From Psammoneis japonica (lineage: Eukaryota), in NCBI GenBank assembly GCA_008632985.1, contig QPGO01000002.1:558001-622000 (forward strand): a stretch of 64,000 nucleotides of DNA, read 5' to 3'. This document shows positions 296 through 57,834 of this stretch, in pieces. Within the stretch, counting starts at the first letter, position 1. Every line of letters starts with the position of its first letter. Made by a program: the position numbers and the translations under genes. The notes beneath the pieces are model-generated. The model worked only from the letters and a program-made list of their open reading frames with translations, had not been told where the DNA came from and made no database searches.

Positions 296-396
296 ACAGC
301 GCACTGCACAGCTGAACAAATTACCCCGCAGTCGCTTGCTAGAGAGTGAAGTTATAGAAAATCATTGTGACATCGTGCCACTGTTTCTAAGATTGT

Positions 397-621
397 TGTG
401 AAGATTGTCAAATCATCAAGACAGTCATTGTGACCCGCCGCTACAAAGACTTACGTCTTCAGTGCAAACGTCACTCGGGAAACTAGGAGAGCAGACGAAG
501 AGCGTCTCCTCTCCTCACAATTTTCTCTTTAGCAGCTGTAACACTGGCACCTAGAATCGCCCCATGTCCATTGTGATGTCAACATGCTCTGTCTGTTGTC
601 CATTCTCTGGATGTCACAACA
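397..621 (+). repeat. 5' LTR of element A
   Basis: Aligns without gaps to 6480-6704; TGTGAAG...ACAACA. Confidence 0.96.
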
Positions 622-637
622 CGCTTCCTCTGCGCTA
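620..637 (+). promoter_or_regulatory. Putative non-canonical primer-binding site complementary to the D-arm of initiator tRNA-Met
   Basis: Reverse complement TAGCGCAGAGGAAGCGTG resembles the eukaryotic tRNAiMet segment TGGCGCAGCGGAAGCGTG; lies at the 5' LTR boundary. Confidence 0.65.
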
Positions 638-649
638 AAGAAGAAAATC

Positions 650-1965
650 ATGTCGGACGTTTCAAGTGCATCATCGTCCTCAACGTCCGATGAGGACATT
701 CCGTTCGCCCTTGCTCCAGCTCAAGCTGTTACGGGAGCAGTTGACTTTCGCAAGAGTGCTGGACGAAAGCTGTTCGAAAATGGCTCGGAAGCATCAAGTG
801 GAGATGCACTCGACTGCACTCCAGGCGAACTCTTTTTCAGTTCCTCAAGAGTGTTGAAACCAGGGCCAGCCTGCTCGGATGGAATGACCCGACGACAGGC
901 ATTCTTGTGATACCTGAAGACCCTGAAGATCCGGACACGACGCACTCAAACTTGCTCACTGACTGTGGTGAGATCAGCATGGAACGCATCAAGAGACACG
1001 AGGAGTCGCACATCAGGAATCCATGCCGTGCAGCTCAAGATGCTGCCATGCTCGGACACTGTCTGACCAACTCAATCTCCAAGGCTGGGAAGGACAAGGC
1101 ATGCATCCACGATGCATCCCACAAGATCGGAGACAAGATCTCTGGATGTTTGCTCCTCAAGGTCATCATTCAAGAGTCGCACCTAGACATGAATGCAACC
1201 ACGAGCACGATCCGCACGAAACTCGCTGAGCTTGACCAATGCTTGCCGACGATCGGTCACGACATCACGAAGTTCAATCAGTGCGTGGCTCTCCTTCTCG
1301 CTGTGCTAAGGTCTCGTGGCGAAACCACAGAGGATCTCCTGACGAATTTGTTCAAAGGACACCTCGCTGCTTCGGATGAGAACTTTGCCAAGTGCATTGG
1401 CAACAAGCAAGAGGAACACGAGGACGGCAAGGACATCATGCCAAATCACCTCATGACGCTTGTGGACAACAAGTGCAAGAATTTGGTTCAGAAGAAGAAG
1501 TGGAGTGCGCCTGGCAAGGAAGAAGAGAAGACACTTGCTCTGGAAGCCAAAGTCGAAGGCATTGAGAAAAGAGCCAAGAAGCACGAATCTGCTGAGAACA
1601 CCAGAAAGGACGACAAGCGTGGGAAAGGAAAGGATGGTGACAAGCGAAACATGCCCAAATGGATGAAGGACAACTTGCGCCCAACCAAGGATGTGATCTC
1701 CAAGCCTGGGCACTGGAACGGTGTAAAACACTGCCACTGCCACAAGGACGTCGGAGGGAAATGCCCTGGAAAGTGGCGCAAGCACACTCCGGAGAATTGT
1801 TCACATGATCCGGATAAGAACAAGAAGAGAGCGGCCAATGGCAAGAGCGGAAACGAACGGGAGAAGAAGTTCTGCCGCAAACAAGACAGCAAACGACGTC
1901 TCAAGCTTACGAAGGCATACGAGGCAGTGGTCGACAAGGAGCCATCGGACGACGAATCCGAATGA
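650..1965 (+). pseudogene. gag-like ORF of element A, frameshifted near the T-run at ~833
   Basis: ATG at 650 (MSDVSS...FALAPAQA) continues in the frame of ORF 907-1965; C-terminal Cys/His cluster and basic tail; positioned between the LTR and pol. Confidence 0.8.
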
Positions 1966-2028
1966 CTCCTAGAGCACGGCCACAGTTGCAACTGCTGTGA
2001 TGATGGATGTGCAATTGGCGACCTTACA

Positions 2029-5000
2029 ATGTTGTGCTGCGCTTTTGTTAAAGCAACGGCTGCATTCGCATGGCAGGTGACAGCCTGCAATTGCACAAAC
2101 ATCATTTTAGCACTCATCATCGCAGATCGCACCATGGCCTGCGCTCACTCCTCTCCATCCGCCGCGGTCCCAATCATCTGCCTCATGCTCTGCTACAACG
2201 ACAACCCAGGACACTCCCCGCACTACGCACCCAAGAAGAAAAGATGGTGCAAGCTGCGGAAGGGTTGCCGCTGCTTGACCAGCAAGATGCGCCAGGTCAG
2301 AGAACAAGTGGCACAATTCATTAAAGCGATCGACACCAACACCGACTCGTCCAGAAGAGGGAGAATTCGAAGACTCCACCAATCTATGGACAAACTCAAG
2401 AGACCCAGGCGAACACGACACTGTGCCGCAGCACTGGCTGTGGTGGTGGTCGCAATGCAGGCTCAAAACAAGAGCATCATGGAGCACACGGTGACCTTCG
2501 ACACTGACTCAGGACCAGTCGGGGTTGACAATCGGGCCACAGGTTGCATGTCCGATTGCGCGGAAGACTTTGTTGGTGAATTGCGAGACTGCAACAGAAC
2601 CACAAAAGGTTTTGGCGGTTCGAAAACCACCGGGGTGAAGATCGGCACCCTGCCATGGAGATGGAACGACGACGAGGGTAGGACGCATGAGTTCAAGATG
2701 CCCAATTCGTTCCACGCACCAAGTGGGAAGGTCAGGTCACTGAACCCTCAACACTGGGCTAAGACCCAAAGGGACAGCAAACCCAAGGAAGGCATGGGCA
2801 GCAAGACTGACTCAAGGCAGGTGACCCTCTGTTGGAACCAGAAGAAACACCGGCTGACAATGCCGCTGAGTGAAACGACCAACGTGGCTGCATTTCATCT
2901 GGCACCCGGATGCCAAAAGCATGGGGCATTCTGTGCGGAGGTGGACATCGACCCAGCAGAAGAAGTCGAGGATCCTGCACCAGCCAATGAGGCGGCAGTC
3001 GTGAGCGACGATGAGGATCAAGATGATGATGCTGAGGTTGAATGCAATGCTGACGCGCCGCGTGATGAATGGCAACCAATGAACCAAGACCAGTCGCAAG
3101 ACTCAGGGTCGGCACCTGGGGAAATTGACGGGTCAACGGCAGCAGATTTCAACTTAGACGGACCACCGTTGGATGGCAAGCAAGAGGGAGACACGGGCAC
3201 CATGCCAAGTTCCACCTCAGAGGGAGCAGCCGTCAAGCCACCAGCAGTGGTGGAAGATGAAGAGGATTGCCAAGGCTCTGCCGAGGCATCACTGCTCCTA
3301 CGATGCCATCAACAATTCGGCCACATGAGTTTTACAAAACTGCAATGGATGGCAAGATTGGGCACACTGCCAAAGAAGCTGGCAAAATGCAATGCACCCG
3401 TCTGCTCTGCGTGCTTGTGTGCCAAGGCCACTGAGCGCAAGTGGCGAGACAAGACACGACGCAAACAGCAACCGACGGAAAAACCCACACACCCAGGCCA
3501 AGTCGTCTCCGTAGACCAACTTGCATCTCCTGCACCGGGGTTGATTGCTCAAATGACCGGATGGCCAACCACCAAATGGCGCAAGTGTGCTGCGGTGTAC
3601 GTTGATCAATGCTCCAAAATGGGGTGCGTGCACCTGCAAAAGACGGCATCGGCAGCGGAGACGTCAGAAGGGAAACAAGCTTTCGAGCAATGCGCCAAGA
3701 CATGTGGCGTTACAGTCGAAGCCCACCATGCAGACAATGGTGTCTTCAAGGCTGACGACTGGGCATTTGCATGTCGATCACAAGGACAACGGCTCACCTT
3801 CGCAGCGGCAGGCGCTCACCACCAGAACGGCTTGGCCGAGCGTCGCACACGCGAGCTCCAAGAACTCGCCAGGAGCATGTTAACACACGCTCAAAGCCGG
3901 TGGAAGAAAGCAATCACAGCGAATCTGTGGCCTCATGCAATGAGGATGGCCAACGACGCGATTAACAACGCACCGAGTTTCCAAAACAAGGACAGGTTGT
4001 CCCCCATGCAAATGTTCTCCAAGACCCGAGTCTCTGCCAACCCAAAACACTGGAAACCCTTCGGATGCCCAGTGTACGTTCTTGACAGCGCCTTGCAATC
4101 CAACCTGCCACACCACAAATGGAAGCAACGATCAAGGGTCGGAGTCTGTCCAGGCCAAAGCCCAACACATGGAAAGAATGTGGCGCTCGTGCTGGATCGA
4201 GCGACTGCTCTAGTTGGCCCACAATTCCATGTCAAGTTTGATCCCTCCTTCCACACGGCATGGCAAGACAAGCTGGACTCGCAATGGCAAATCAAAGCCG
4301 GCTTCACAGCTCAGAGGGAGGCAACGAAAGCCAACACTGGTGGAGCAGCCAAAACGGCGTCCACACCAGCTCCAACCACGAAGAAGCGGAAAGCAAATTC
4401 AGAGGGAGCTGGGCGAGGCAAGAAACGACAAAAACGAGTTCAATGGGCTGACCTAAATCTGGGACCGCAACAGAGCGGAAACACTGCAGCAGCCACTGGC
4501 CAAGTGGCGTCGAGGCAAGACAGTCCACACGCACAACCTCAGGAAGACGAGGGTGGACCTGCGCCAGCGACTGAATCTCTAGAAGCAGCTCCAGGAGAGC
4601 GCGAGTCTGACGAGACACGAAACGGCACCAATGCACCAAAAGTGACTCGCTCAGGGCGAAAGAGCCAACCGGTCAGCAGACTGACAGAAGCTGTGACGGC
4701 CGAAATCAGTTCCGAAACAAGAAACGATGTCGAGGGTGAGACATTGTGTTTGGCAGCAATGCACCCCCAAGACTCACAAGAACTTAGAAAGACAAGAATC
4801 CCCTCCTTGCCTGTAAAGAATCAGCAGATCCAGACACCATGCACATGCACCAGGCTGTGAAGGAACCGGATCGCGTGCAGTTCCTGAAAGCCATGCAAAA
4901 GGAGGTAACGGATCAAATGGAAAATGGCAATTTCTCCATTGTTCCACGATCACAGGTGAAAAGAGACAGCAAGGTGCTGCCAGCGGTGTGGCAGATGAAG

Positions 5001-6440
5001 CGCAAGCGCGACATTAAGACTCGCAAGGTCAAGAAGTGGAAGGCTCGCTTGAATGTCGACGGTTCAAAAATGAGGAAAGGAAAGGATTGTGAAGAGACGC
5101 ACGCACCGGCAGCATCACGAAACTCAATTCAAATGTCACTTGCCCTGACAGCAATGAACGGGTGGCACTCCAAGCAATTGGACTACATTTTAGCCTTCCC
5201 TCAAGCGCCGGCAGACAAGGAGCTCTGCATGGAAACACCAGCGGGCTTCGAGTTAGTCGACGGCAACACCAAGGATTATGTCCTGAAGCTCCATCAAAAT
5301 GCATGCGGTCAAAAACAGGCTGGCAGAGTTTGGAACAAATGTCTGGTCAACAAGCTCATCAACAAGCTTGGTTTCGAGCAGTCCAAGGTTGATGAGTGCG
5401 TGTTCTATCGTGGGAAAACCATTTGCCTTCTGTGTGCAGACGACTCGCTGATTGCCGGTCCTGATGAGAGAGAAATTAATCAGATCATCAAGGAACTCAA
5501 GGAGGCAAAACTCGACATTACTGTGGAAGGGGACATGCAGGATTTTCTCGGCATCAACATCGTGAGGAAGAACGATGGCACGGTCCACTTGGCGCAACCA
5601 CACTCAATCGATCAGATGCTCAAGGACTTACGACTGGATTCACCAAGTGCCGCACCCAAGGACACTCCGGCGGCATCCTCCAAGATGCCATTAAGGCATT
5701 CCGATTCAGAGCCGTTTGATGATTCCTTCAACTGCCGATCGGTTGTTGGCAAGCTGAATTGCTTGGAAAAATGTGCTCGAAGCGACACAGCGTGCATCAC
5801 CCACCAATGTGCACGGTTCACTGCAGCTCCCAAGGTTGAGCATGCCAAAGCCATGTGGTGGCTTGGCAGATGTTTGTACAAGACCAGAGACAAGGGTGCA
5901 GTCCTGAAACCTGCAAAGGGAAAGGACTTAGAGGTTTACGTGGATGCAGATTTTAGCGGGAATTGGGACCCACGAGAGGCAAGCCAAGACCGAGATGCAG
6001 CACGTTCTCGACACGGTCATGTCATTTCTTGCGCGGGCTGTCCCATTCTTTGGAAATCTCAATTGCAAACCGAGACAGCCTTGAGCAGCACAGAATCTGA
6101 ATGCACAGGCTTGTCGTGTGCTCTACGAGAAGCCACACCCTTGATGGAAATGCTGAATGAACTCAAGCGACACGGCTTCCCTGTCAAGATGTCCACGCCC
6201 AAGATCCATTGCAAAGTGTTTGAAGACAACAGCGGGACGCTAGAGATGGCGCGCGTGCACAAGTGCAGACCACGAACCAAGCACTTGAATGTCAAGTTGC
6301 ACCACTTTCGCGACTGTGTCACTCGAAAAGAAATTTCGACACACGACATCGACACCAAGGACCAACTGGCGGATTGTCTCACTGAGCCGGTTACGGCTGA
6401 GATCCCAGAGACCTTACGTCCTCTGGTGATGGGTTGGTGA
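2029..6440 (+). pseudogene. pol of element A (protease, integrase, RT, RNase H); frameshift at ~4800-4840
   Basis: PR VGVDNRATG; IN HQQFGH..CSAC, VSVDQL, HADNG, NGLAERR, FGCPVYV; RT KARLNVDG, QLDYILAFPQA, CADD (from YxDD); RH YVDADFSG, EDNSG, DQLAD. Confidence 0.93.
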
Positions 6441-6479
6441 GTTTAGACTTTAACTTGCAAGAGACACAATGAGAGGGAG

Positions 6480-6704
6480 TGTGAAGATTGTCAAATCATC
6501 AAGACAGTCATTGTGACCCGCCGTTGCAAAGACTTGCGTCATCAGTGCAAACGTCACTCGGGAAACTGGGAGAGCAGACGAAGAGCGTCTCCTCTCCTCA
6601 CAATTTTCTCTTTAGCAGCTGCAACACTAGCACCTAGAATCGCCCCATGTCCATTGTGACATCAACGTGCTCTGTCTGTTGTCTGTTCTCTGGATGTTAC
6701 AACA
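6480..6704 (+). repeat. 3' LTR of element A
   Basis: Follows the PPT; aligns to 397-621. Confidence 0.96.
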
Positions 6705-7079
6705 GATTGTGAGTGGATCTCGGATGGAGTCGTCTTCCCGTTCCGAGTCGCCAAACACACAGTTCCAAACACTGTTTCCGATAAAACCACATGGCAAATT
6801 CTTCAGTCCCCTCAAGTCGTTGAAGCAGACACTGAATCGGCTTGATCCAATTTACACTCCGACAGTGTTTAGCCACAACCAAGTGACAAGGAAACCCTGA
6901 CAACCTGCTGAAACCCAAATTGGGAAAGGGTGCCAGTCTAAAACCATGCCCTTCCAAGAAGCGCATGGAAGGAATGCGAGCCAACATGCCCGCCAGTGCA
7001 AGCTAACATGCTTGCCAGATGCAAGGAGAAACAGAAAAAGAATCAGTCGAGGAAGCGACCATTCATTCTTCATTCATCC

Positions 7080-10000
7080 TCAATCATCACACACATCGTG
7101 TGGCATCATGCCAACAAGGCCATCTCGCTTGATGCCACCGCACATGATCTTAGTCACAAGATCAGCCGGATTGCATTCCGATCTGGCATGTCCTGTGAGG
7201 GACTCACCCACAGCTGCCGACTCCCCAATGGCATGGCAGCATGTGGAGTTAGACTTCTTCTTCAAAGTCGACTCTGGGCTTTGGGTGTTGTGGACAACTG
7301 ACATGTTGTCCCCACAAATGTGTGATGGTCCGCTGAGCAGGACTCCCATCATCCTGAGTTCACACCTTGGGCCTCGCAAAGCTTCCATGCCCTGCTTCAC
7401 AGCCACAAACTCAGCACCAAAGACTGAAGTCTCGATGGCACTCTGGCGCTTGGAGAACCAGGCAATTGATGCCATGTTCAAATGGATGAAATGACCAGTG
7501 CGAGAGCGTCTCGTCACTTTGTCATTCGCATGATCTGAGTCTACAAATGGACGTAGATCAATGTCCTTGCCCAGAGCTTCTGGTGCATTTGGCGGAATTG
7601 CCTCCTTGGTGTCCCTGCAGAATGCCTGCCAATCACATTCCTTAAAGTCAGACATGTCAACATCCGGGTGCGTTGGATCGAACGCTAACGTGGCATCATG
7701 TCTGTTCTTAAGGCATCCATGCACATGCAGGACTGCGCCGAGATGACCTTCTCCAGGCATGGCAAGGAATGAGGCAAGCTCGGACACCTCTGCTGTGAGG
7801 TCGACTCGTCCAAGTTCCACTGTCCAGCACAGGACTCCTGCCTGCGACTGGCAAAATTGAGCCCGCTCTGCATCAAGCTTTGGCGCAATGTCGAGCTCCG
7901 GTCGACAGTCGCGTGGAAACGGAGCCGTTGCCTTGCATGGTGACGTCCATCCGGGAGCAGACTCATCTAGACACCCCTCGACATTTCCAACGGCCTGTTG
8001 GATGCACTTGCTAGAGCTCATGCTCCACGCGTGGATACCGTTCGGCATTTGCACTTCACGGATCTTCGCCCCGAGGTGCATCTCAGGGTCACCGATGGAT
8101 CCGGGTTTCATCTTGAAGTGTCGGTCCAATTCCTTGAGCGCCAACGTGGCGTCGTGGTGCACCACAAGCACATCGTCGACATGCAACAGTGCACAGGCAT
8201 GGCAACGGAACCCATCATCTGGTCGAACTTGTGCCTTCATCCACACATCGGGATCAGCTGGACATGGTTCCCAACCAAGATGACGCATGCACGATGCCAA
8301 GTGGTTCCTGAAGGATGCACCTGCACTCTTCAATTCGTACAATGCGCGCTTGACTGTGGCACGCTTCCCAGCATTGGGTCCAAACTCAGGTCCCAGAGTT
8401 GTGGTGATCTTCTCGCTGTCAGGTGCGGTGATGTGGGCATTCTCAATGTCTGCAGCCTTAACCTCTGAGTCATTTGGAGCCGCTAGAGCGAAGGCAATCC
8501 TTGCACTTTCACGGGAGACGACGCTTGCGCACGTCAGGGTCGCTGGAGGTTCAGTGGCATGTCCCCCTGCGACATGACGAGCCTTCCGCTTGAAGTCTTG
8601 TAGTTTGACATCAAAGACCAAGTGGCAGCGGATGTGCTGGCAACCCACAAGCTCCTCGTCATTGTCGACAATCTCAAAGGCTTTCGCAACGACTTCGATC
8701 TCCTTGTCTACGGCGTCCTGCCACAAGCGGTCGCCATTGGCCTTGTCGATCTCGACTGCCTCTTCACAGGTCTTGGGAATGCGCATCCCGTGCTCATGAG
8801 TGCGCTTGTGATGTCGCTTGTTCACAGCGGCTGTGATTTGCTGACGTTTCTTGAAGGTAAAGGGAACCCACCATGCAAATGCGGGTTCATCCTCTGTGGA
8901 TCTAGCCCTGGCATACTCTGCCATTTCTGCTGGGTTAGATTCCTTCAAGTCGGACAGTCGTTCCCAAGATGTGGATCCGTCTTTCCATTGCACGCAAAGA
9001 TGCCAGCCTTTGGCAGTCTTGCGCATGGATCGACGTCCTCGACTGTCTTGGATGAAGGCGCCCTCCTTCTTGACAGCATGCCCGTCAGTCTTGTGATCAA
9101 CAATTGCACCCGGCAACAAGTGCTGGTTGCCTTCATTGTCACACTGTGCGAACACATTCTCAGCGATGACATTCGCCGCGAATTCCGCTTCCTGTCCATC
9201 AGGAAACTCGACCTCACACACACGAGTGTCAAGCATTGGGTTTGGGTTGGCCCGTCCGGCAGGTGTGCCGCCCGGATTGAGCTTGCGTCGCTTCACCACC
9301 CCAGTCTGTTCCATGTCCCCGTGAGGCAGCAGTGCTTCTGCGTTGACATGTTGATCGTAGGCTTCGTCTGGCATGTCATCCTCATCGGAGGCACTGGACG
9401 GAACATCCTGTTCCTCTTCATCCTCGTACGGTTCGAAGGTGGGAGCAATTGCATCAGGGTCGTCAAAGTCCCCGACGGTCATGCCAGGGCCTAGCTTGAC
9501 CTCCATCAACCTGTCAAACTTTTCACGCAACGCCGTGTGCGTCTTGTGTCCCTGCTCCTCGGGAGTTGGTGCCCTGTGAGATGAGCGATGGACTGCCTGT
9601 CCATTCTCCTTGAGCATCTTGGCCGTCATAACTGGGCCCACATCCCTGCTCGGACCTGGACATCGCCCCAGGACTTCCTTGTCCTCGGGAAATGAGACTG
9701 CCGTGTCTCGAAACATGACCCAGTCGCACCAGCCCAGTTCGCACATGTGCGAGATGTCAGCCGTCTGACCAGACACAACAGTTTCCGGGACTTCGCCGTC
9801 AAGCTCATAGATGCTTCGAGCGGTGCCAGACCTGACAAGGCCTTCCAGTTCCAGGCAATCATCCCACAGGCATTTTGGGGCCTGTGACTTGACCATCTTG
9901 CGCCCAACACCTCGCTTGAGTTCACGAATTGCGCCCTCTGCGGTGTCAGACCAAGGGGTGTGTGGTTCAGTTTGTCTTGCATGGCAATCAGCCTCCCTGG

Positions 10001-11169
10001 CTTTCTTGCCAAACTGCCCCATTGTCTCTTCTCTCACCCCGTCCACCAGCATGGTGTGGGGCACGCCTTCTTGCGCGAAGAGCAACGATGACGCCTCGTG
10101 CGCTAGACGTTTTGACTTCAATGGACAAGCACGTGCCCATCCATTGGACATTGCGAACACTTGCGTGCACACATTCCCTTGCCCAGACTTGACAGAGGAG
10201 AACATGGTGTCGGAGCACATCTCCTTTGAGACACGCCTGTGTCGCAGTTGTCGATCATTGGTGCGGAAACGTCGCGACAGCGCAGGATGTAGAACCGTCC
10301 TGGCTCCACGCTGTGTCGTAACCTTGAGAGTGTTCTGAGCATCCTTGAGGCTGATGGACCAATTCTCGGCCAAACGTTCAGCGTCAACCTTGAAGCCGCG
10401 CTTCGTCGTCTTGAGCGAAGACAGTTTCATGGATGCCAGTGGCAAACGGTCATCGCATGCATTGGAAACATCACGTGACGGCTGATTCCCCAGAGAGTCT
10501 GAGGTCTCTTGAGCTGCAGTGCGCATCGTCCCCGGTCTCATGCACTCTGCCAAGAGCATCGGTCATGGCATCTTCCCTGGCGTGGAAATCAGAGGAGGCG
10601 GGGTCCCATTCCGGGGACTCACACGTGAGTTCGCACACGCTCCCGTCTTGGGCTGCATCCTCGCATTGAGACAAAGTCGGGACACTGGAGGGGAAGCAGC
10701 TCGAGACTCCCTCCAGGTCCAAAGGCACAGCCAATGAAGTGCCATTTGCGTCCTTGGCGACAATGGCATGTTCCTTGTCGTTGGGCTTTGTCAGCAGAAA
10801 CTTCGGTTTTAATGAAAGTTCCACGTCATTCAGCCACAACTGCATTGGACACAGCAAGTTGTGCTCAAGGTGTGGCACATGGACTGCTTGGTGGACAACC
10901 AAGACGTGTGGGTGGCCCGTCTGAGGATCAGCACAAGCAACAGCTCCACTGACGGTGCGCAGACGCTTGCTGGCACCTGATGTCGGGTCGCACCCTTCCA
11001 TGTCTACTGGCCTGTCATGGTCAAGTAAAATTAAAGCGTGCTTGCCTGGCACGCTCATGTCTGCATGACCATCGATGTCCGTGCGAGACTCTTCGTTCAA
11101 TGGTCCCTTAACCTTTGTCTGGGTCAAGCGTAAAGTCTGCAACGGACTGAGCCACATGACAGCCACCAT
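7080..11169 (-). pseudogene. pol of element B (PR, IN, RT, RH); frameshift near 10550
   Basis: PR DIDGHAD, HNLLCPMQL; IN CSDTMFS, TEPHTPWS..AEGAIRELK; RT FKRKARHVAGGH, ADIENAH, ALYELKSAGA, HVDD; RH FVDSDHA, CGDNMSV, NPADLVTK. Confidence 0.94.
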
Positions 11170-11175
11170 TGGCGG

Positions 11176-12593
11176 TCACTCCTTGTGACATCCAGCCTTG
11201 GGGACATGCTTGCGAGCAGCCTTGCGAATCAACGCCTTGTTGTTGCGGTTTCGATCCTGCTTGGCAGCCGGAGGCTTCATTGGCTCTTCAGTTTCAGATT
11301 CACTGCCACCTTCATTGGATGAATCGTCCATCTGAGCTGAAATGGCAGTGACCGTCTTGGTCAGAGCCTTGATCTGTTTGGCGTTACCGGCCGCCGTGGC
11401 CTTGCCGGTTTTCGTGTCACCACGTGTGTCGCGCAGCGACTTGAGCTTCTTCCCAGCCTGGGGAAACAGCTTGCTGCACTCTTTGGGAGGGCGGCACTTG
11501 TCCTCCACATCATCGGCATGAATGACAGCCTTTTCGTGTCATTGTCCGGCTTGGACTGCTTGATGAAGTCCTTGAGCAGAATGACGCAAGCATCAAAGTC
11601 GTTGCGCAACGTTGCGCTAGACACAATCTGCATCTTGACTGAGTCAAGTGACGAGTCCTTGACACTTGCAAGGAGATGGCAGACCTTGGATCGTGCGTCG
11701 ATCCCGGCATGACCACACTGGGTTGAGCCATCCAGAATCGCGTGTTGTTCAACATGAACTCGCACGCAGCGCTCGAAGTTCCAATTGCGCTTTTCCCCGT
11801 GGCAGGACAAACTGGCAAGGCACTTTTCAGCGGCGTTTGCCATGTCATCTACATTGTTGTAGGCCGTCCTGCCATCCTGACTCCTCTGGGCCGACTTGAC
11901 ATGGGCCCAACTCGTGTGTTCTTGCGTGATGCCTGCAACAATTTCCCGCACTTTGATGTCATCGGCCGTGAACATTTCGGCAGGTTGAGGGTCATTCCCA
12001 GCAGCAAAATGCGGGGCCCTCGTGATCATCTCCTTGATGGGATTGTCACAGTTGGTGGCTGGATCATCGGCCTCGGGAGCCACTTCCTGGTCATCACGGA
12101 TGACGTGCGCTGGCGGCATTTTCGTCTCGCCTCGGCATGCCCGCAGATGCTCCTGAATCGACTCGATCGTCTTCGGCCAGTCCTTCTCGATGATCATTGG
12201 CAGCGTTTTGGGCGGTGCGCAGGTCTCCTCTGTGGCACGGAAGTGTCGGTGGCCTTGCACTCGTGCAAGGTTGATGTCGACAGCTCGCAACGTCCGCGAC
12301 ATGCGCTCACAGTGACGAGCCGCATGCGCGGCGAGCTTGAGGTTCGTCTCGGCTCGCAACGGGACTGACGTCCCCAGGTTGGGTTGGGCGTTCCCTCCTG
12401 CTGGCGGATTCCCTGCCGCAGCCCCTCCTGGGCGACGAATGACCTTGCACAAGGTCTCGACCTCGTGGTCGTCGAGATGACGCAGTTCATCGACTGAGTC
12501 GATTCCCTGCTCATCGGTCAAAGCCGCGGCTGCTTGCGCGGCAAACCCCAGTCGGGTGCAGGCAGCACGCATCGCTGCAGCGACTGCCGCCAT
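11176..12593 (-). pseudogene. gag-like ORF of element B, frameshift near 11520
   Basis: ORFs 11361-12593 and 11176-11508; motifs YxGEKRNWNFE-like (CHGEKRNWNFERC) and LRNDFD, recalled as typical of diatom copia gag; upstream of pol. Confidence 0.8.
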
Positions 12594-13280
12594 GGTTGAT
12601 GGTTACGAACGGTGTAATTTGATGTTCTCGCAAACTTTTGTGTGGTTGTGTACGGAAAGTGAGTGAGGTGCGCGAACTTCGTATCGCTTTTCCACCGTTG
12701 GATAAAAGTAATCGTTATGACTACGATCAACGTGTCTACAGATAGCTGTTTATATTTAATCCACGTGGATTAATATCTGTATGGGAATTCAGATACAACG
12801 GCTACTGTTACAATCTACGTGATCGAATAATGCATGTGCCGATCATCGGCAACGTGCTCGTTCCCTGGTCTACATTGACCAATAGTGAGGTTAAATATAT
12901 ATAATTTATCAATTATATCGCGTCTACATATTCAACTTGCATATGTTTATATGCTCACTCGACGATTTCAAATCGCCACGCAGTTGCCTCCGAGATAACT
13001 TCGGTATGGAAATGGCGTCCCAGATCCAATTTTGCGCTCTGTGTCCGCGTATTTACGCTCATAAAACACATCAGGACAGTCGATACTTTTGTTATCCATA
13101 AGTATTACGGCCGAACTAGCCCTGGGAGTTACATACTCGTCAAGCACGAACGTCGTCTCACGTTCGTCGATGTTTTCATGTCATCTCTGACAAGTTGGAA
13201 CGAATGGTCGTATTGCGAATCGTTCGCAAGCGTAGCAATCATTACCACTGTCGTTACATACGGCGATGGCTCTGATAAAG

Positions 13281-13456
13281 TGAATAAATTACCCCGTAGT
13301 CGCTTGCTAGAGAGTAAAGTTATAGAAAATCGTTGTAACATCGTGCTGCTATTTCTAAGATTGTGAGTAGATCTCGGATGGAGTCTTCCCGTTCCGAATC
13401 GCCAAATATACAGTTCTAAACACTATTTCCGATAAAACCACATGGTAAATTCTTCA
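13281..13456 (-). repeat. 5' LTR of element B (TpA-rich, largely unmutated)
   Basis: Aligns to the split 3' LTR; followed on the minus strand by TATCAGAGCC (tRNAiMet-type PBS core). Confidence 0.95.
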
Positions 13457-13509
13457 CAGCACTACCGGTGTAATGCGCACAGATGCTGTACGGTGAATGA
13501 GACCGAGCG

Positions 13510-15020
13510 AGAGTGGTTTCGGACAAAACAGCACAAGAATCCAACTTGAAACTAAACAACAAAAGAAAATGCCCATGACTTGTTTTGTTTCACCATCTTC
13601 CTGTCATGACACTCATTGTGTCTTTTTCTCAAACCACCTGATGGTTTGTCACGTTCTTGTGTTTTTGTTTTCTTCTTGTGGTGGTGTGTTTGGTGTGCTG
13701 GTGTGGGGGGGAGAGACTCGACAGAGTGCTGCGCCAACATTTTTCGCAACACAAAGTGCACTTGCAGGACCCTCAACAAGCACGCCAAACATCCACAATT
13801 TGTGCTGCAATCTTTTTTGCCACATGCAACACAACAATCAGTTTGCTCCCAAAAAAGCAGCTGACTCTTGACAGTGTTTTTTCTCTCCTCGCACCTCTGT
13901 GCTTCTCTCCTGCCAAGCCAAGCCCCACAGAGGTGTGCTCTGGACAAGAGTCAAAGACCTGCTGTGTGACCTCCATGTGACAACATTTCCAGCATGACTT
14001 GTGTTGACAACAGAATGGATGATGCTGGCCAGAGGCAGTTTCTTTCAGCTTGGGCATCTTCGGGGCGGGTGCTTGTTTCTTCTTTCTTGCTTCCTTNNNN
14101 NNNNNNNNNNNNNNNNNNNNNNNNNNNNNNNNNNNNNNNNNNNNNNNNNNNNNNNNNNNNNNNNNNNNNNNNNNNNNNNNNNNNNNNNNNNNNNNNNNNN
14201 NNNNNNNNNNNNNNNNNNNNNNNNNNNNNNNNNNNNNNNNNNNNNNNNNNNNNNNNNNNNNNNNNNNNNNNNNNNNNNNNNNNNNNNNNNNNNNNNNNNN
14301 NNNNNNNNNNNNNNNNNNNNNNNNNNNNNNNNNNNNNNNNNNNNNNNNNNNNNNNNNNNNNNNNNNNNNNNNNNNNNNNNNNNNNNNNNNNNNNNNNNNN
14401 NNNNNNNNNNNNNNNNNNNNNNNNNNNNNNNNNNNNNNNNNNNNNNNNNNNNNNNNNNNNNNNNNNNNNNNNNNNNNNNNNNNNNNNNNNNNNNNNNNNN
14501 NNNNNNNNNNNNNNNNNNNNNNNNNNNNNNNNNNNNNNNNNNNNNNNNNNNNNNNNNNNNNNNNNNNNNNNNNNNNNNNNNNNNNNNNNNNNNNNNNNNN
14601 NNNNNNNNNNNNNNNNNNNNNNNNNNNNNNNNNNNNNNNNNNNNNNNNNNNNNNNNNNNNNNNNNNNNNNNNNNNNNNNNNNNNNNNNNNNNNNNNNNNN
14701 NNNNNNNNNNNNNNNNNNNNNNNNNNNNNNNNNNNNNNNNNNNNNNNNNNNNNNNNNNNNNNNNNNNTGGACATCAGGGTTGGCCACTGTCAATCAAAAG
14801 TCTAAATCTCAAATGACAGAGGCACAAGATGCATGCTCCAAAAACATCCATCACTCTTCAAACTGTGGTGCAGTGCTCACCCAACAATGAGCAACTTGCC
14901 TCTTTGTTCTTCTCTTGGCTCCTCATTCTCTGAGCCACCTTCAAACCATGTTTTCTCTGCACATGCTGGTGTGCTCAAACACATGTTGTTTTCCAAGTTG
15001 CCGCCAGAAGCTGTGGCCCC
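13510..15020 (+). repeat. Dispersed repeat X, right part, spanning an N gap
   Basis: ~13516-14096 is similar to ~24254-24879; ~14940-15020 is similar to ~25711-25777. Confidence 0.75.
14097..14767. other. Assembly gap
   Basis: Run of N. Confidence 1.
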
Positions 15021-23860: not shown

Positions 23861-25780
23861 TCTTTCAGCTCTTGAATCTCCACCACACTTTTGCACATGC
23901 GAGGACAGGCGCTTCTGGCAATAACAGCAGCACCGGAAGCACCAAAAAACAAATGAAAAAGGACGTCCGGGAGGCTTCCAAAGCCTCGGAAATGATTGGG
24001 GCAGCGGTGGTTCCATCCGGAATTGCTTCAAGCCGCGACTTTGTGAAAGCAATTCGTGGGTCTCCATTGTCACTCGGACAAAAGGAGTGAACCATGCAGG
24101 TCACGATCAGCACAACAAGAAACGTGAGAAGGCGCCTCATGGTGAACGGGACGGGACACGGGACCGCCGCAACAACCGTCACAAAGTGAGCAAGAAAAAT
24201 GAGGATGACGTCAGGCGAGGAATCAGGAAAGCGTGCTGCGTACAGACGGGTGTGTTTCGGACAAGAGCGAGCACAAGAATGCACCTTGAAAGTAAACAAC
24301 ACAAGAAATGAGTGCCTGTGACTCACCGGTGTTTCAATTTTGTCACAACGTCCACCAAGTTTGTTTCACCATCTTCCTGTCTTGACACCCACTGTGACAG
24401 CTTCCCAAAGCACATGATCATTTGTCACACTCGCGCGCTTTTGTTTTCTTGTGTTGTGTGTGTGGCGGGGCAGAGGGACTCCACAGAGTGTGCCAACATT
24501 TTTGCAACTCCACTGTCACAAACTGCACTTGCGGGGCCCTCAACATGCATGCAAAACATCCACAATTTGTGCTGCAATCTTTTTTTTGCCATGTGCAAGA
24601 CAACAGCCAGCCAGTTTGCTCCCAAAAAAGCAGCAGAGCCAACACTCTGTTCTCGCAGTGTTTTCTCTCCTCTGCTTCTCTTGCTTGGCCAAGCCACAGA
24701 GGTGCGCTCTGGACATGAGTCAAAGCCCTGCTGTGTGACCTCCATGTCACCACATTTTTAGCATGATTTGTGTTGACAACAGAGCAGGTGGATGATGCTG
24801 ACCAGACTTTCTTTCAACAGTTTGGTTGGGGGCATCTTTGGCAAGATGCTTTTTTCTTTCTTCTTCCCCACATCATTGCNNNNNNNNNNNNNNNNNNNNN
24901 NNNNNNNNNNNNNNNNNNNNNNNNNNNNNNNNNNNNNNNNNNNNNNNNNNNNNNNNNNNNNNNNNNNNNNNNNNNNNNNNNNNNNNNNNNNNNNNNNNNN
25001 NNNNNNNNNNNNNNNNNNNNNNNNNNNNNNNNNNNNNNNNNNNNNNNNNNNNNNNNNNNNNNNNNNNNNNNNNNNNNNNNNNNNNNNNNNNNNNNNNNNN
25101 NNNNNNNNNNNNNNNNNNNNNNNNNNNNNNNNNNNNNNNNNNNNNNNNNNNNNNNNNNNNNNNNNNNNNNNNNNNNNNNNNNNNNNNNNNNNNNNNNNNN
25201 NNNNNNNNNNNNNNNNNNNNNNNNNNNNNNNNNNNNNNNNNNNNNNNNNNNNNNNNNNNNNNNNNNNNNNNNNNNNNNNNNNNNNNNNNNNNNNNNNNNN
25301 NNNNNNNNNNNNNNNNNNNNNNNNNNNNNNNNNNNNNNNNNNNNNNNNNNNNNNNNNNNNNNNNNNNNNNNNNNNNNNNNNNNNNNNNNNNNNNNNNNNN
25401 NNNNNNNNNNNNNNNNNNNNNNNNNNNNNNNNNNNNNNNNNNNNNNNNNNNNNNNNNNNNNNNNNNNNNNNNNNNNNNNNNNNNNNNNNNNNNNNNNNNN
25501 NNNNNNNNNNNNNNNNNNNNNNNNNNNNNNNNNNNNNNNNNNNNNNNNNNNNNNNNNNNNNNNNNNNNNNNNNNNNNNNNNNNNNNNNNNNNNNNNNNNN
25601 NNNNNNNNNNNNNNNNNNNNNNNNNNNNNNNNNNNNNNNNNNNNNNNNNNNNNNNNNNNNNNNNNNNNNNNNNNNNNNNNNNNNNNNNNNNNNNNNNNNN
25701 NNNNNNNNNNCTCAAACCATTCTCTGCACATGCCAGTGTGCTCAAACACATGTTTTCTGCCAGAAGCTGTGGCCCCAATG
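23861..25780 (+). repeat. Second copy of repeat X without the LTR insertions, spanning an N gap
   Basis: Collinear similarity to 1-295, 13516-14096 and 14940-15020. Confidence 0.8.
24880..25710. other. Assembly gap
   Basis: Run of N. Confidence 1.
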
Positions 25781-49341: not shown

Positions 49342-49879
49342 AGCCTACTCGTATCGGACGTAGGGACCCACACGCAAGAGCGGGCCTACCAACCAAACAA
49401 CAAACTGCATGCGATAGCCCGTTGTAACAAACTCTCGATGAGCTACTTCTAAAACGACGTGTAGTACAAAAATTTTTTTACCACCCTCTCTTTCTAGGGC
49501 TAGCAGTCGACAGTGCCGGCTCCTGAAATCATGACGAACCGCAGTACTTATCGCCGATTTGTCAACATCAGCCGTCTCAAGTTTGAATTCAAAGTTGGCC
49601 ATGTTGATTCTCGCCGTTGTCGTTGCGTCTGAAAAAGAGCAAACATTTGCAGTGTGCGATCCATCAGAGCATTCTACGGTTCGCAACCAAGTACAAGAAA
49701 TGCATTATCAGCGATGTCTCGTGCATGTAGCTGTGCATGCAAAGCTTTGAGACGATGATCTGATGGTTGAGAGCTGAGAGATCGAAGCGTTATAAAACTA
49801 AGAAAACAGGCTTTTAGAATCATGCCTCCTGTCAACCACAAACTTATGAAATGATGTGTATTAATGATTCCATGTCCGC

Positions 49880-51760
49880 TCATGTAATCGTAGCCGAAGG
49901 AACCGAGAAAGTATCGACAGGATCATTTACCGCTTGTAATTCTAATTCGCAGCTAGCCACTTGGTACTGGTTACTTCCAACGCGGCGTCGATTGTAATAT
50001 CGCTTTCCATAAACTCCTCCCACGACACCAAGGGTTACGACAAGGGCGACTGCCGCCAAAATTCCGCTAAAGCTCCCAGAGGATTCCGACGCTTTGCTCC
50101 GTTCATGGGCAATTTCATCTTTCTTCTCATCACGCTTTTCATTCGTCGGAGTTTCTTCACCGGGACGTTCCCATGGGTTTGGCTCTCCGAATTCATCTAG
50201 AAGAGCCAAATAGTCACAATCACTCTCTGCCCATCCAATTCTTCCATTCTCAACATCAAACGTGACATCATGTCCCATGATAAAGTTAGAGCCCAACGTG
50301 CTACCAAACCCGTCATCTTCATACAAGCGGTTTACATACTGTCCTTCCTTGTATTCCATGTAATGAGACGGCGGCATGGCAACCACGACATCAAAATTCT
50401 CCTCCAATGTTCTGTTTTTGTCTGGAATGGCTGATCCAAGTGTACCCAAGGGGTATGGTGCCGCAGAGACGATTTTTTGGTTTTCCCTGTAGTCACCTTT
50501 CATTTGAAACAGAATCGTAGGAAGCCCATCCAGCTCTTCTTCGGAAAGATCGAGCGGATTGTGATGATAGGGAACATCGGTCATTTCTTTCCACACCCGT
50601 TCAAAGTCATGAGCAAACTTCCTTGGAAAGTACGTGTTGGTAGTACAAGAAGCAATCGTTACTTCACCCCGATCAAGCTCTTCTTCCGACCGTTCTACCG
50701 ATATAATTGGCAAGGAAGCGACACTAGACAGGGCTGAATCGCCTCCTCCACCCTTTCGCATATAAATGGCTTTTACATCCACACCATAGTCTCTGCTTTG
50801 CTTATTGTTCAAAGGGGTGTAGACTACCGGGCTGTTCTCATTGTGGAGGCGTTTATCAAAACCACCCAGTGTAAAAGCACCAGCTTCGGTTCCTTTACGA
50901 GACGCAGTGGGCTGACGTGCATAGCACAAGGAAAACGCAGACCCGTCGCTAATGTTTGCCCTCATGGCTTGGTGCCAGTACGAGTTCTCCGTATTGTCCA
51001 TCCCAAGAATACCGTCAGCGAGCTGTGTCTTGAAGAGGCCCGTCAATTTAGTCTGGCACACAAAATCAAGTTCAAACTGATACTCTCTTGCTTGATCTGG
51101 GTCAATGTCATCGTGGATCTCACCGTCTCCTTCTCCCTTGGCGAGTGCCTTGTCGTGTGGTCCTCCTATACGAAGTTGTTACCAAGCAGTCAAGCGATCA
51201 ACATTTGTTATCTAGAAAAGGAAACGCACACACACACACACGATTCACGTACCCATGTAAGCCATATCCTTGGCTTCCCAGCCAGACCACGAGCTCCCCT
51301 CCATATAAGAAAATCCCATTTCACATTTTCCATTCGTATTCGTGTCGACATTGCAATGTCCCACATGGCAATGACCACAATACACTGGCTGAAACGTCAA
51401 GGATGCAGTCTCGTTAAACCGTCGATCGACGTGGAAGATTTCGTCTCCACAATCAATGCAATTACTGCAGGGAAACCCGATACCAGGACTGTCGGTTCCA
51501 AGAATGAGTGTTTGTCGTTGCGGTGGAGTTCCCGTCCACATGTCAACATAATGAACACCATATCCTTGATAGGCGGCGTCCACCTGCTGGGCAGAAAGAT
51601 CGCGACGCAAATTATGGTGCGAATAGTCTTTGTTGCGCTCTTTGAGCACACGTCGCATGTGAGTGTGTTGGGGAATCAAAGGCATCGTCTTGATGGTTTT
51701 AATTCGAGACAACGCAGGAATGGGCGTTCCGACCAAAACAATAAATGGCAAATATTTCAT
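49880..51760 (-). CDS. A1 aspartic-protease-like membrane protein, copy 1 (both catalytic Asp motifs altered)
   Basis: HYVDMWTGTPPQRQ, YMEGSSW, ADGILG, LGSNFIMGHDVTFD..RIGWA; intron 51166-51252; C-terminal TM segment. Confidence 0.9.
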
Positions 51761-52319
51761 TGTAGAACGCTGTCTTTCAGCAGTTTAAATAAAGATCAAT
51801 CGAACTCAACAGTGAGAAGCGAAGCTCAAGGTATCACGGCATCAATGAAAAAGATACGAGTACGGTATGATAATCACTCTATATATTCCCAGCTTCCTGT
51901 ACCGATCCGGTAGCAGGAGTTGTAGTGCTAGATAAGATATCCAAGAAGAGTATTCTTTCGTTTACGCTCTATGGTTTGCTCGCAACACGCTCCCAACATG
52001 GGAGGTCTCTCGTCTCTATCTTACGACATGGAGAAGTGAGAAGATCATCTTTGTATGATCGTTCGGACGTGTTGCACGCGTCAGCGAATTTTCGAAATAT
52101 CTGAACGGAAAAGGTTTAGTAATATAACGGTCGTCCGTTGGGTTTATCCTAAATGTATAAGTCCAGTAATCTTTCTGTTTTTTATATATAAAAACATACA
52201 TTCATTTTGACTCAATGGTCCGACCCTCGGTACAGTGCAGTACGACCTCGGCGTAGATCTGGTCCTTTTCCCAACACACTCCTGCATTCCAACCAGGCTT
52301 GTCAGGGACATTCATAACC

Positions 52320-52800
52320 CCCTTCCACAGCTTAAGTAAATGAACTGCCATGCAAAGGTTTGGTGAAGAAATCTGCCAGCATCTCCTCAGTGGGACAGCA
52401 TGCAGTGAAACACACATCTCCAGACTTGGTGAGACATGGTGCCGCTCATTGATGTGCCTCATGTGTTCTCACATCCACTGGGTGCTCTCCCACTCCATTC
52501 TGGGAGCAGGGTCAAGCTCTGGTTGTCCTGGTGGATGACATCATTGCTCACCTTTTGTGTCCCTGAGCTTTAAGAAAATGTCTTGCCCGCCACAGCACAG
52601 CAGCAAGCAGGGCATGAAGTCACAAACTCACTCCCGCTGCCAGCTCTGCATTGGTGGAGCTTTTCATGTTTGACTTCTTTTTTGCAGACATTGAGCAGAC
52701 AGACCTCTTGTCTGAAGATGTGGTCACTCTGGTGTGGCACTTTATGCCTTGGCGTGTCAACCCATGCGACCACTTGACATTTCATGGCGATGATGTAATG
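52320..52800 (-). pseudogene. Decayed copia RNase H fragment inside a TpA-depleted insert (~52290-54540)
   Basis: WVD, IHQDNQS, HINER, CPTEEMLADFFTKPLHG. Confidence 0.75.
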
Positions 52801-56901: not shown

Positions 56902-57834
56902 TTTAGAATGCTGACTTTGAGCAGTTTAAATAAAGATCGATCGAATTCAACAATGAGAAGCGAAGCTCAAGGTATCACGGCATCAATGAAAATGCGAGCG
57001 TGTTCGCGTACATGATGTGTAATTTGACATGATGAGTCATGCCTGCCTTGATCCGCGATTCTTCAGTCGTGACTCCAGTGAGTGATTTAGATTACAAGTG
57101 CTACGAATTGCTTCACAATTGCGCGATTCACGTGCGCGAAGGTCGAATGTCGTTGCCCGAAGCAACATTCTCCCTTCGCGCAGCCAATCACGTAGAACCA
57201 CGTAGAATTTGTACCAAATGCCGTTGCACCTTCTTTTTTGCCTCCGACCCCAGCGCAAGTGGGCGCATTGTATGGGCAAATTGAGAAGCAACGATGGATC
57301 GGTGCAATGGCATGGAGATGAGATCGAAATGGGAATTTCAACCTTGCTTCCAAGCAGCATGATGGATTCGTGGCGGTTTCCAAGGCACGGCACTCCGATT
57401 TTGAGGTGTGACATTTGTGGAAAAGCCAATGATGTGTGCATGTCATCCTCAGTTGACATCAAGGGAAACATGGCTCGCCTTGATTCATTTGCAGTGTTGA
57501 GCGACAAGGAGAATGACCAGAAAGATGAGGGCAAGAACGCTGCCAAAGAGGGTGCTGAGTTGAGCTGCAAACGCAAAGTGAAGAGCGACGAGTCTTCTCA
57601 AACTGGCAGTCAAGACGATTTGAGCTCTGCATTCATCCCATGACCGGCGCTGCCCGAGCCAACATTCAGGGAGGCATCAGCAATGGAGAGAATGTTGTGG
57701 TTCGAGTTGTGTTCAAATCGACATCCACCATTGGGCATGCACAGGTGAGAAGCACACGGCAAGAGCACAACTCTCTTGCGCACTGCACTCAATGAAGCTC
57801 GCGCTGCTGTTGCAACTCACTTGTCGCAACAGGA

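What the first reader, a model, noticed from the sequence alone, without database searches (positions are those of the whole stretch)
12595..13500. Protected island: the 5' LTR and leader of element B escaped mutation
Seen: TA is abundant from just upstream of the gag ATG (12593) through the leader (e.g. TTAAATATATATAATTTATC at ~12891-12910) and the 5' LTR, and about 40 bp into the flank. The coding region and the homologous 3' LTR are depleted. Inference: targeting depends on position rather than sequence, since the same LTR is hit at one end only. An open or unmethylated promoter may exclude the mutator.
Basis: partly seen in the sequence, partly recalled or inferred. Interest (0 to 1): 0.72.

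Follow-up and report, generated by a model that had tools for sequence, protein, structure and literature searches.

The report
Retrotransposon promoter spared by TA mutator
In a diatom-like genome a little-known process rewrites TA to TG or CA in jumping genes, but the 900-base start region of this one escaped it and also escaped methylation-type decay, as it did in some sister copies and in a second family, which suggests that an unmethylated promoter patch shields DNA from the mutator.

Summary
Confirmed. Copia element B (minus strand) keeps TA at 72 of 76 alignable TA-type sites in its 5' LTR and leader, against 39 of 222 in its body. Its LTRs differ 11:0 in favour of the 5' copy. Four of 8 independent B loci show the same island; an unrelated copia family keeps more TA in the 5' LTR in 11 of 12 copies, mostly inside mutated flanks. 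Spared islands also lack CpG decay (2 of 234 against 190 of 1416 in bodies); unspared copies do not. This points to an unmethylated, AT-rich promoter/leader. It is not a general 5'-LTR rule: gypsy pairs go 7:11, another copia family often loses its 5' LTR first, and the other three spared B copies abut host DNA. 'Position rather than sequence' is too strong, because the leader exists only at the 5' end. Chimera and conversion are unlikely but untested with long reads. The mutator matches the TpA hypermutation of Bigelowiella viral inserts (bioRxiv 2026). This scan noted the process, and single spared leaders, on other DNA of this genome before.

The parts
12604..13489 (.). Spared island: first to last retained TA; TA o/e 1.0, CpG o/e 1.6, GC 0.42
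13281..13456 (-). 5' LTR of copia element B, 176 bp, TG...CA ends, 17 TA kept
13266..13280 (-). Primer-binding-site-like motif directly after the 5' LTR (likeness to the tRNA-iMet PBS is recalled, not tested)
12594..13280 (-). 5' leader, about 690 bp, AT-rich, no conserved ORF; 12950-13350 is 65-77% conserved in distant relatives
12891..12910 (.). TATA-like (TA)n tract, intact here although ATAT is the most mutable context
12560..12603 (.). Inner edge of the island (last mutated site 12559, first kept site 12604); brackets the ATG and a GC step from 0.42 to 0.6
13457..13490 (.). Flank with 3 retained TA; begins with the right 4-bp target-site duplication CAGC (13457-13460)
11361..12593 (-). 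First ORF (gag by position; no Pfam hit), 410 codons, TA-depleted
10471..11175 (-). Second open frame of the element, 234 codons, no Tyr, no Pfam hit
7080..10562 (-). pol frame, 1160 codons, RVT_2 (copia) domain, 5 Tyr; named best hits are Fragilaria crotonensis RTs at about 61%
6806..6813 (-). Polypurine tract before the 3' LTR
6705..6805 (-). 3' LTR of B, part 1 (mutated)
313..396 (-). 3' LTR of B, part 2 (mutated); left target-site duplication CAGC at 309-312
397..6704 (+). Younger copia element A nested in B's 3' LTR (LTRs 397-621 and 6480-6704), itself TA-depleted (8.8/kb) with no clear LTR asymmetry
13516..14088 (.). TA-depleted repeat into which B inserted (second copy at 24254-24865; left part 1-307 matches 23861-24167)

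Best explanation
A host process converts TpA to TpG/CpA in chromosomal DNA inside silenced, CG-methylated repeat domains. The 5' LTR plus the long AT-rich, CpG-rich leader of some copia families stays unmethylated, probably because it is a nucleosome-poor promoter bound by host factors, so the mutator does not reach it. The signal lies in the LTR-plus-leader sequence, which exists only at the 5' end. Whether it holds depends on the copy: it is stronger next to host genes, can stand alone inside a mutated block (as here), and is lost in other copies. Shown: post-insertion TA loss, the island's recurrence at fixed places, co-sparing of CpG, and copy-to-copy switching. Inferred: methylation state, open chromatin, promoter activity and the enzyme (an adenine deaminase is Mettrop et al.'s guess; error-prone repair is not excluded).
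For: Island kept in 4 of 8 independent B loci: 72/76, 71/73, 73/75 and 72/73 sites, against 18-23% in their bodies. They have different flanks and their own 4-bp TSDs. Sparing does not follow subfamily: spared W and C84 and unspared C57 and C323 are all about 1% apart outside TA/CG sites, while spared C158 and C23 are 4% away. Body exposure is similar in spared and unspared copies (W 39/222, C57 40/223). CpG loss is 2/234 in spared islands against 190/1416 in their bodies (p=3e-11), but 33/175 against 165/949 in three unspared copies (p=0.67). Family F3 (RT 35-38% identical to B, no leader similarity): 11 of 12 LTR pairs favour 5' (87:6); 9 of 12 have at most 3 TA in 600 bp of upstream flank yet keep 33-44 of 46-47 sites; CpG loss is 4/467 against 178/5375. 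Across LTR pairs, CG is kept on the TA-spared side 26 times against 5. Island ends fall at or near a GC step in the four larger copia families and in B. The island outlasted the mutation of the younger nested element A. G000 encodes C5-methyltransferase domains (27 matches). Diatom TEs are CG-methylated (PMC9998398, passages) and a CoDi LTR drives transcription (PMC2806351, section 9).
Against: No methylome, chromatin or RNA data were available. The other three fully spared B copies all have host-like DNA upstream, while C57, C323 and C12, with depleted upstream flanks, are unspared or partial; C12 keeps its 3' LTR near host-like DNA. So within B proper, nearness to host DNA explains most cases and the window copy is the exception. 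Outside F3, LTR polarity follows flank polarity (rho 0.46, p=0.017, n=26). Gypsy pairs go 7 versus 11. Family F1 goes 3 versus 5, with mutation strongest over the gag half. One gypsy family has a spared island inside its pol frame in 5 of 5 copies, so a canonical promoter is not required. Of 9 distant B relatives only 3 have a full island and 1 a partial one. Families are not independent samples.
Confidence: 0.6

Rival explanations
1. Staged spreading: silencing starts in the translated region (small RNAs from coding RNA, as for Arabidopsis EVADE) and spreads along the DNA; the 5' LTR and leader are simply reached last, with no active shield.
For: In B the edge brackets the ATG. In family F1 mutation is heaviest over the gag half, and one copy keeps its 5' LTR while gag is erased. 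Partial copies erode from the gag side (C57 LTR 10/20, leader 16/60; L044). EVADE methylation starts in the body and later reaches the LTRs (PMC8892269, passages).
Against: The 3' LTR, the 3' untranslated part and kilobases of downstream flank are hit while the leader next to gag is not. In F3 the edge lies 400-600 bp upstream of the long ORF. The window's island outlasted the mutation of a younger nested element. A gypsy island lies inside coding DNA.
Confidence: 0.18
2. Host-edge effect only: DNA near active host genes is spared, and 5' ends are spared because they happen to face genes.
For: C84, C158 and C23 have TA-normal upstream flanks; C12 keeps its 3' LTR near host-like DNA; flank polarity predicts LTR polarity outside F3. 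Earlier scan notes describe this pattern.
Against: It cannot explain this locus, which has depleted DNA on both sides and the nearest host-like block about 21 kb away (a 670-N gap at 14097-14767 leaves some room). Nor does it explain 9 F3 copies or L041, L042 and L045. The inner edge is at the same place whatever the flank.
Confidence: 0.08
3. Recent gene conversion or cDNA recombination from an unmutated donor overwrote the 5' end.
For: It would restore TA and CpG together, as seen. Intact copies exist in another family. 10 of 12 F3 islands carry 0 or few private substitutions.
Against: No unmutated B body among 45 matches (40 candidates scored, a lower bound). The two LTRs of a copy share its rare alleles (C158 4 shared, 0 only at 5'; C23 3 and 0). 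Private substitutions are not scarcer in islands (W 2/529 against 10/4103; F3 6/4138 against 93/46737, p=0.58, low power). Island divergence between copies equals body divergence. The F3 edge is graded.
Confidence: 0.07
4. Assembly chimera joining an unmutated 5' end to a mutated body.
For: The assembly has gaps near the element. No long read was available.
Against: The TA-rich 5' LTR abuts this locus's own TSD, which matches the far end. The same edge recurs in 4 B loci and in most F3 copies on different contigs. All full-length B bodies examined are depleted.
Confidence: 0.03
5. Leader TA sites are intrinsically resistant or are held by purifying selection.
For: Context matters in the body: TTAA keeps 51%, ATAT 0%.
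Against: The same leader sites are erased in C323 (8/76 kept). ATAT is kept 42/42 in spared islands, 3/30 in unspared ones and 0/86 in bodies. Selection could hardly hold over 70 non-coding sites in crippled copies.
Confidence: 0.04

Closest known systems
TpA hypermutation of integrated NCLDV and virophage DNA in Bigelowiella natans (Mettrop et al., bioRxiv 10.64898/2026.01.13.699255; read parts 1-3 of 5 and a term search; supplements closed)
   Same: Same change (TpA to TpG or CpA), on DNA, on both strands, aimed at foreign or mobile sequence, with host genes spared.
   Different: Here it is a diatom-like genome and LTR retrotransposons, inferred from copies and not from mutation-accumulation lines. 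The paper's main text has no occurrence of 'LTR', 'promoter', 'diatom' or 'boundary', so it reports no spared islands and no link to CpG decay.
Repeat-induced point mutation (RIP) of ascomycete fungi (recalled; summarised in Mettrop et al.)
   Same: Repeat-directed point mutation after insertion, dinucleotide-specific, leaking into flanking single-copy DNA.
   Different: RIP makes C to T and creates TpA; this destroys TpA. RIP is triggered by homology and should hit both LTRs; here one LTR of a pair is untouched.
Variably methylated IAP retrotransposons of mouse (PMC8555987, abstract; PMC7898769, listing)
   Same: A subset of copies keeps a CpG-dense, hypomethylated LTR, set by both sequence and nearness to active genes.
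   Different: There it is measured methylation without a mutator; here it is read from a mutational footprint, in a lineage without known KRAB zinc fingers (recalled).
Body-first silencing of Arabidopsis EVADE (PMC8892269, passages)
   Same: A copia element marked first in its body, with LTRs reached later.
   Different: EVADE silencing is methylation without TpA mutation and is RNA-guided to both LTRs; here the 3' LTR is hit while the 5' LTR is not.
CoDi Ty1/copia elements of diatoms (PMC2806351, section 9 and passages)
   Same: TG...CA LTR of similar size (176 bp against 163 bp for Blackbeard), 4-bp TSD as for Blackbeard, RVT_2 with diatom best hits.
   Different: CoDi group not assigned here; no TpA erosion is mentioned in the passages seen.

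Membership tests
Bigelowiella-type TpA hypermutation | T/A to C/G changes restricted to TpA, on both strands | tested here: met
   LTR pairs differ almost only at TA versus TG/CA: 11, 18, 13 and 12 sites with 0-4 other differences each
Bigelowiella-type TpA hypermutation | Acts on chromosomal DNA after integration | tested here: met
   Sister LTRs differ; a TSD pair differs as TAAA/CAAA; copies agree on TG versus CA at only 46-67% of body sites
Bigelowiella-type TpA hypermutation | Targets foreign or mobile DNA and spares host genes | tested here: met
   TA o/e 0.14-0.17 in elements against 0.57 in the gene block; one single-copy ORF downstream of a B copy is hit too
Bigelowiella-type TpA hypermutation | Ongoing rate about 1000-fold above background in mutation-accumulation lines | not testable with these tools
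   Needs cultured lines
Bigelowiella-type TpA hypermutation | Shared enzyme (ADAT2-like deaminase proposed) | not tested
   No deaminase search was run; the enzyme is only a hypothesis in the paper
Fungal RIP | C to T transitions that enrich TpA | tested here: not met
   TpA is depleted, o/e 0.14
Fungal RIP | Homology-triggered, both repeat copies hit | tested here: not met
   LTR pairs 11:0, 18:0, 13:0, 12:0 and 0:12
Unmethylated CpG-island-like TE promoter (VM-IAP-like) | High CpG density at the 5' regulatory region | tested here: met
   CpG o/e 1.58 against 0.79 in the body
Unmethylated CpG-island-like TE promoter (VM-IAP-like) | Low methylation in a subset of copies | tested here: inconclusive
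   Indirect only: CpG decay absent in spared and present in unspared copies; no methylome
Unmethylated CpG-island-like TE promoter (VM-IAP-like) | Open chromatin, bound factor, transcription | not testable with these tools
   No RNA holder listed; no chromatin data
Ty1/copia (CoDi) LTR retrotransposon | TG...CA LTRs, TSD, PBS, PPT | tested here: met
   (the PBS likeness is recalled)
Ty1/copia (CoDi) LTR retrotransposon | RVT_2-type reverse transcriptase with diatom relatives | tested here: met
   PF07727 E 2e-10; Fragilaria crotonensis RTs at 61%
Ty1/copia (CoDi) LTR retrotransposon | Assignment to a numbered CoDi group | not tested
   No reference CoDi set was compared

The most novel reading that the evidence does not exclude
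Long-leader copia elements carry a cis-acting shield, a CpG-island-like barrier in the LTR plus leader, that keeps their promoter unmethylated and out of reach of the host's TpA mutator and can also stop the mutated domain from spreading. In 3 of 4 spared B copies the edge between mutated and normal chromosome falls at the leader/gag junction, with mutation running on past the 3' LTR, in one case into a single-copy ORF. This would be a transposon counter-defence against a eukaryotic DNA-editing defence, and TA retention would be a fossil map of germline chromatin at sub-kilobase resolution.
Probability: 0.3. Interest if true: 0.82.

Novelty: new variant of a known kind. Interest (0 to 1): 0.62.

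Why it matters
How the TpA mutator picks its targets is open: the one paper found lists RNA guides and epigenetic marks as guesses. The islands give a direct test. They rule out plain homology recognition, tie the mutator's reach to the footprint of CG methylation, and name exact 0.8-0.9 kb sequences, present in spared and unspared copies within one genome, on which methylation, accessibility and barrier activity can be measured. If the leader is an evolved shield, it is a new host-transposon conflict; if not, TA retention is still a sequence-only readout of past chromatin.

Tried and rejected
Reads: no RNA holder listed. The three runs (one sample) are short contigs; the longest laid piece shown on the stretch is 257 nt and none shown joins a mutated gag site to the island, so they neither support nor refute a chimera. 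An antisense 153-codon frame in the leader (12905-13366, +) has no Pfam hit and is not open in 5 relatives: rejected as a gene. Rfam over 12400-13700 gave one chance hit (E 0.83); no tRNA in the window. No shared motif between the B and F3 leaders beyond a (TA)n tract; best match E 5.6. No nucleosome-scale periodicity in TA retention along the body (low power). No good homologue of flank 13457-13515. The downstream flank of C84 runs into a high-copy repeat, so it could not test spreading. Dropped rows: 2 of 40 copia and 2 of 7 B relatives had no LTR pair; gypsy L101 was dropped as a false pair (67%, 1999 nt); C595 was merged with C323 (63 of 63 mutated states equal); the C232 tandem pieces count as one locus. 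Literature: searches found no paper on TpA loss in diatom transposons or on spared LTR leaders; only the Bigelowiella preprint, whose supplements were closed and may bear on this. A sequence look-up in earlier scan notes found nothing.

Full report
Setting. The window is G000:C3:558001-622000 of a 91-Mb assembly. The named relatives of a host ClpB-type gene and of the element's RT are diatoms (Mayamaea, Thalassiosira, Fragilaria), so I call it diatom-like. Repeat blocks have TA o/e of 0-0.3 and the gene block 34.5-52.4 kb about 0.57.

Anatomy. Element B is a minus-strand copia. It has a 5' LTR at 13281-13456, a PBS-like motif, a leader of about 690 bp, an ATG at 12593, frames to 7080 with RVT_2, a polypurine tract, and a 3' LTR split into 6705-6805 and 313-396 by a younger copia, A (397-6704). 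The 4-bp TSD CAGC stands at both ends.

Observation. 12595-13500 has 75 TA in 906 bp against 41 in 5789 bp of body. The LTRs differ at 11 TA sites, all kept at the 5' end (p=0.001). The leader was richer in TA to begin with, so I tested site by site on aligned copies: 72 of 76 kept in the island, 39 of 222 in the body. The inner edge lies between 12559 and 12604. The flank extension is 3 TA in 44 bp with no homologue to compare.

Sister copies. A search with the 5' end gave 45 matches from 40 scored candidates. They reduce to 8 independent close loci, since C595 repeats C323 and C232 is one tandem locus. Four are fully spared (window, C84 71/73, C158 73/75, C23 72/73), two partly (C57 26/73, C232a 15/36) and two not (C12 17/69, C323 8/76), while bodies keep 10-23%. 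LTR pairs read 18:0, 13:0, 12:0, 5:2, 1:3 and 0:12, each with its own TSD. Sparing cuts across subfamilies. The most mutable context, ATAT, is kept 0 of 86 times in bodies, 42 of 42 in spared islands and 3 of 30 in unspared ones. So the sites are mutable and the state belongs to the locus.

Methylation footprint. CG to TG/CA loss is 2 of 234 in the four spared islands against 190 of 1416 in their bodies, but 33 of 175 against 165 of 949 in C57, C12 and C323. Across 21 other LTR pairs with a TA difference of 4 or more, plus 5 B pairs, CG is kept on the TA-spared side 26 times against 5. If CpG decay reflects 5mC deamination (established chemistry; diatom TEs are CG-methylated, PMC9998398 passages), the island has been unmethylated. 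TA loss (about 80%) far exceeds CpG loss (11-16%), so it is not a by-product of CpG decay.

Other families. I fetched 40 of 150 listed copia RT hits, picked for long open frames; 38 had an LTR pair: 25 favour 5', 10 favour 3', 3 tie (families are not independent). Family F3 (12 copies, RT 35-38% identical to B, unrelated leader) favours 5' in 11 of 12 (87:6). Nine of its 12 copies have at most 3 TA in 600 bp of upstream flank and still keep 33-44 of 46-47 sites in the first 600 bp, against 5-10 of 22 at 800-1200. Its CpG loss is 4/467 against 178/5375. Its edge is graded and lies 400-600 bp before the long ORF. Family F1 (short leader) goes 3 versus 5 (15:52) with mutation heaviest over the gag half. 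Two more families spare only 200-300 bp in most copies. Of 19 gypsy pairs (20 of 150 hits fetched, one false pair dropped) 7 favour 5', 11 favour 3' and 1 ties. One gypsy family keeps an AT-rich 1-kb island inside pol in 5 of 5 copies. Of 9 distant B relatives, 3 have a full island with depleted upstream flank, 1 a partial one, and the rest weak or none. In B and the four larger copia families the spared part ends at or near a rise in GC, which is also present in unmutated or little-mutated copies of F1 and F3.

Neighbourhood. C84, C158 and C23 have normal host-like DNA upstream and depleted DNA downstream; in C23 this includes a single-copy 633-codon ORF with 2 Tyr and intact CpG. C12 keeps its 3' LTR near host-like DNA. 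Outside F3, LTR polarity follows flank polarity (rho 0.46). So host-gene edges, noted earlier in this scan, explain many cases, but not this locus, nine F3 copies or three B relatives. In the three edge copies the inner border is at the same place as here, which is what a barrier in the leader would give; insertion at a pre-existing border is not excluded.

Artefacts. Chimera is unlikely because the TA-rich LTR abuts its own TSD and the pattern recurs on many contigs, but the only reads were short contigs and could not test it. Conversion is unlikely: no unmutated B body was found, sister LTRs share rare alleles, and islands are as diverged as bodies; the private-mutation test has low power, and 10 of 12 F3 islands have no private change.

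Mechanism. Best reading (0.6): a TpA mutator confined to methylated repeat chromatin, excluded from an unmethylated AT-rich LTR-plus-leader whose state depends on both sequence and neighbourhood. A diatom LTR of this size drives transcription (PMC2806351, section 9), which makes a promoter plausible, but nothing here shows transcription or open chromatin. Staged spreading from the coding region (as for EVADE, PMC8892269 passages) is the main rival and may act together with it.

Comparison. The mutation type is that of Bigelowiella viral inserts (bioRxiv 10.64898/2026.01.13.699255; parts 1-3 of 5 read; no mention of LTRs or promoters; supplements not seen). It fails both RIP tests. The copy-specific sparing works like mouse variably methylated IAPs (PMC8555987, abstract), but membership is untested. 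Searches found no paper on spared leaders. Earlier notes of this scan describe the process many times in this genome and single spared leaders or 5' ends twice; the family-wide recurrence and the CpG co-sparing were not in the lines I saw.

Verdict. A real feature and a new variant of a barely known process. Interest 0.62.

Noticed in passing
L099-L102, L106 (e.g. G000:C10:420008-430007), 3000-4000 bp from the 5' LTR start: A gypsy family keeps about 90% of TA sites in a 1-kb AT-rich stretch inside its pol frame (RNase H to integrase) in 5 of 5 copies while the rest is mostly mutated; possibly an internal promoter.
   Followed up: partly
L132/L033 (G000:C23, about 187100-189100): A single-copy 633-codon ORF with a leucine-rich-repeat-like end (judged by eye; no Pfam hit for the part scanned) lies directly downstream of a B 3' LTR and is TA-depleted (2 Tyr) with CpG intact: the mutator has reached what looks like a host gene.
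   Followed up: partly
G000:C84:210278 onward; also C87, C90, C15, C23 and others: A TA-depleted repeat with about 2.62-kb spacing occurs in at least 39 places at 99-100% identity, so it spread or homogenised after being mutated.
   Followed up: no
L053-L058, L060, L072, L075, L078: Copia family F1 has unmutated copies (LTRs 99.7-100% identical) and copies with a 5'-to-3' gradient strongest over gag: a time series of the process.
   Followed up: partly
L034 (G000:C57) element ends: The target-site duplication itself is mutated on one side only: TAAA upstream, CAAA downstream.
   Followed up: yes
B family bodies, window 6806-12594: Strong context preference of the mutator: ATAT, ATAC, ATAG and ATAA keep 0-8%, TTAA 51%, CTAA 38%; private non-TA changes lean to T>C and A>G (40 of 68).
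   Followed up: partly
window 49733-51851 and 54785-56992: Duplicated region at 87% identity, the second copy with a weak aspartyl-protease hit, separated by a TA- and CpG-depleted insert at about 52500-54500.
   Followed up: no
L045 (G000:C231:68000-77999): A B relative whose leader is interrupted by an insertion of about 2.2 kb; the TA-rich patch stays with the LTR-side part.
   Followed up: partly
G000 C43, C10, C59, C78, C27, C297, C301, C34: 27 C5-methyltransferase domain matches, several clustered and broken on small contigs; not typed.
   Followed up: no
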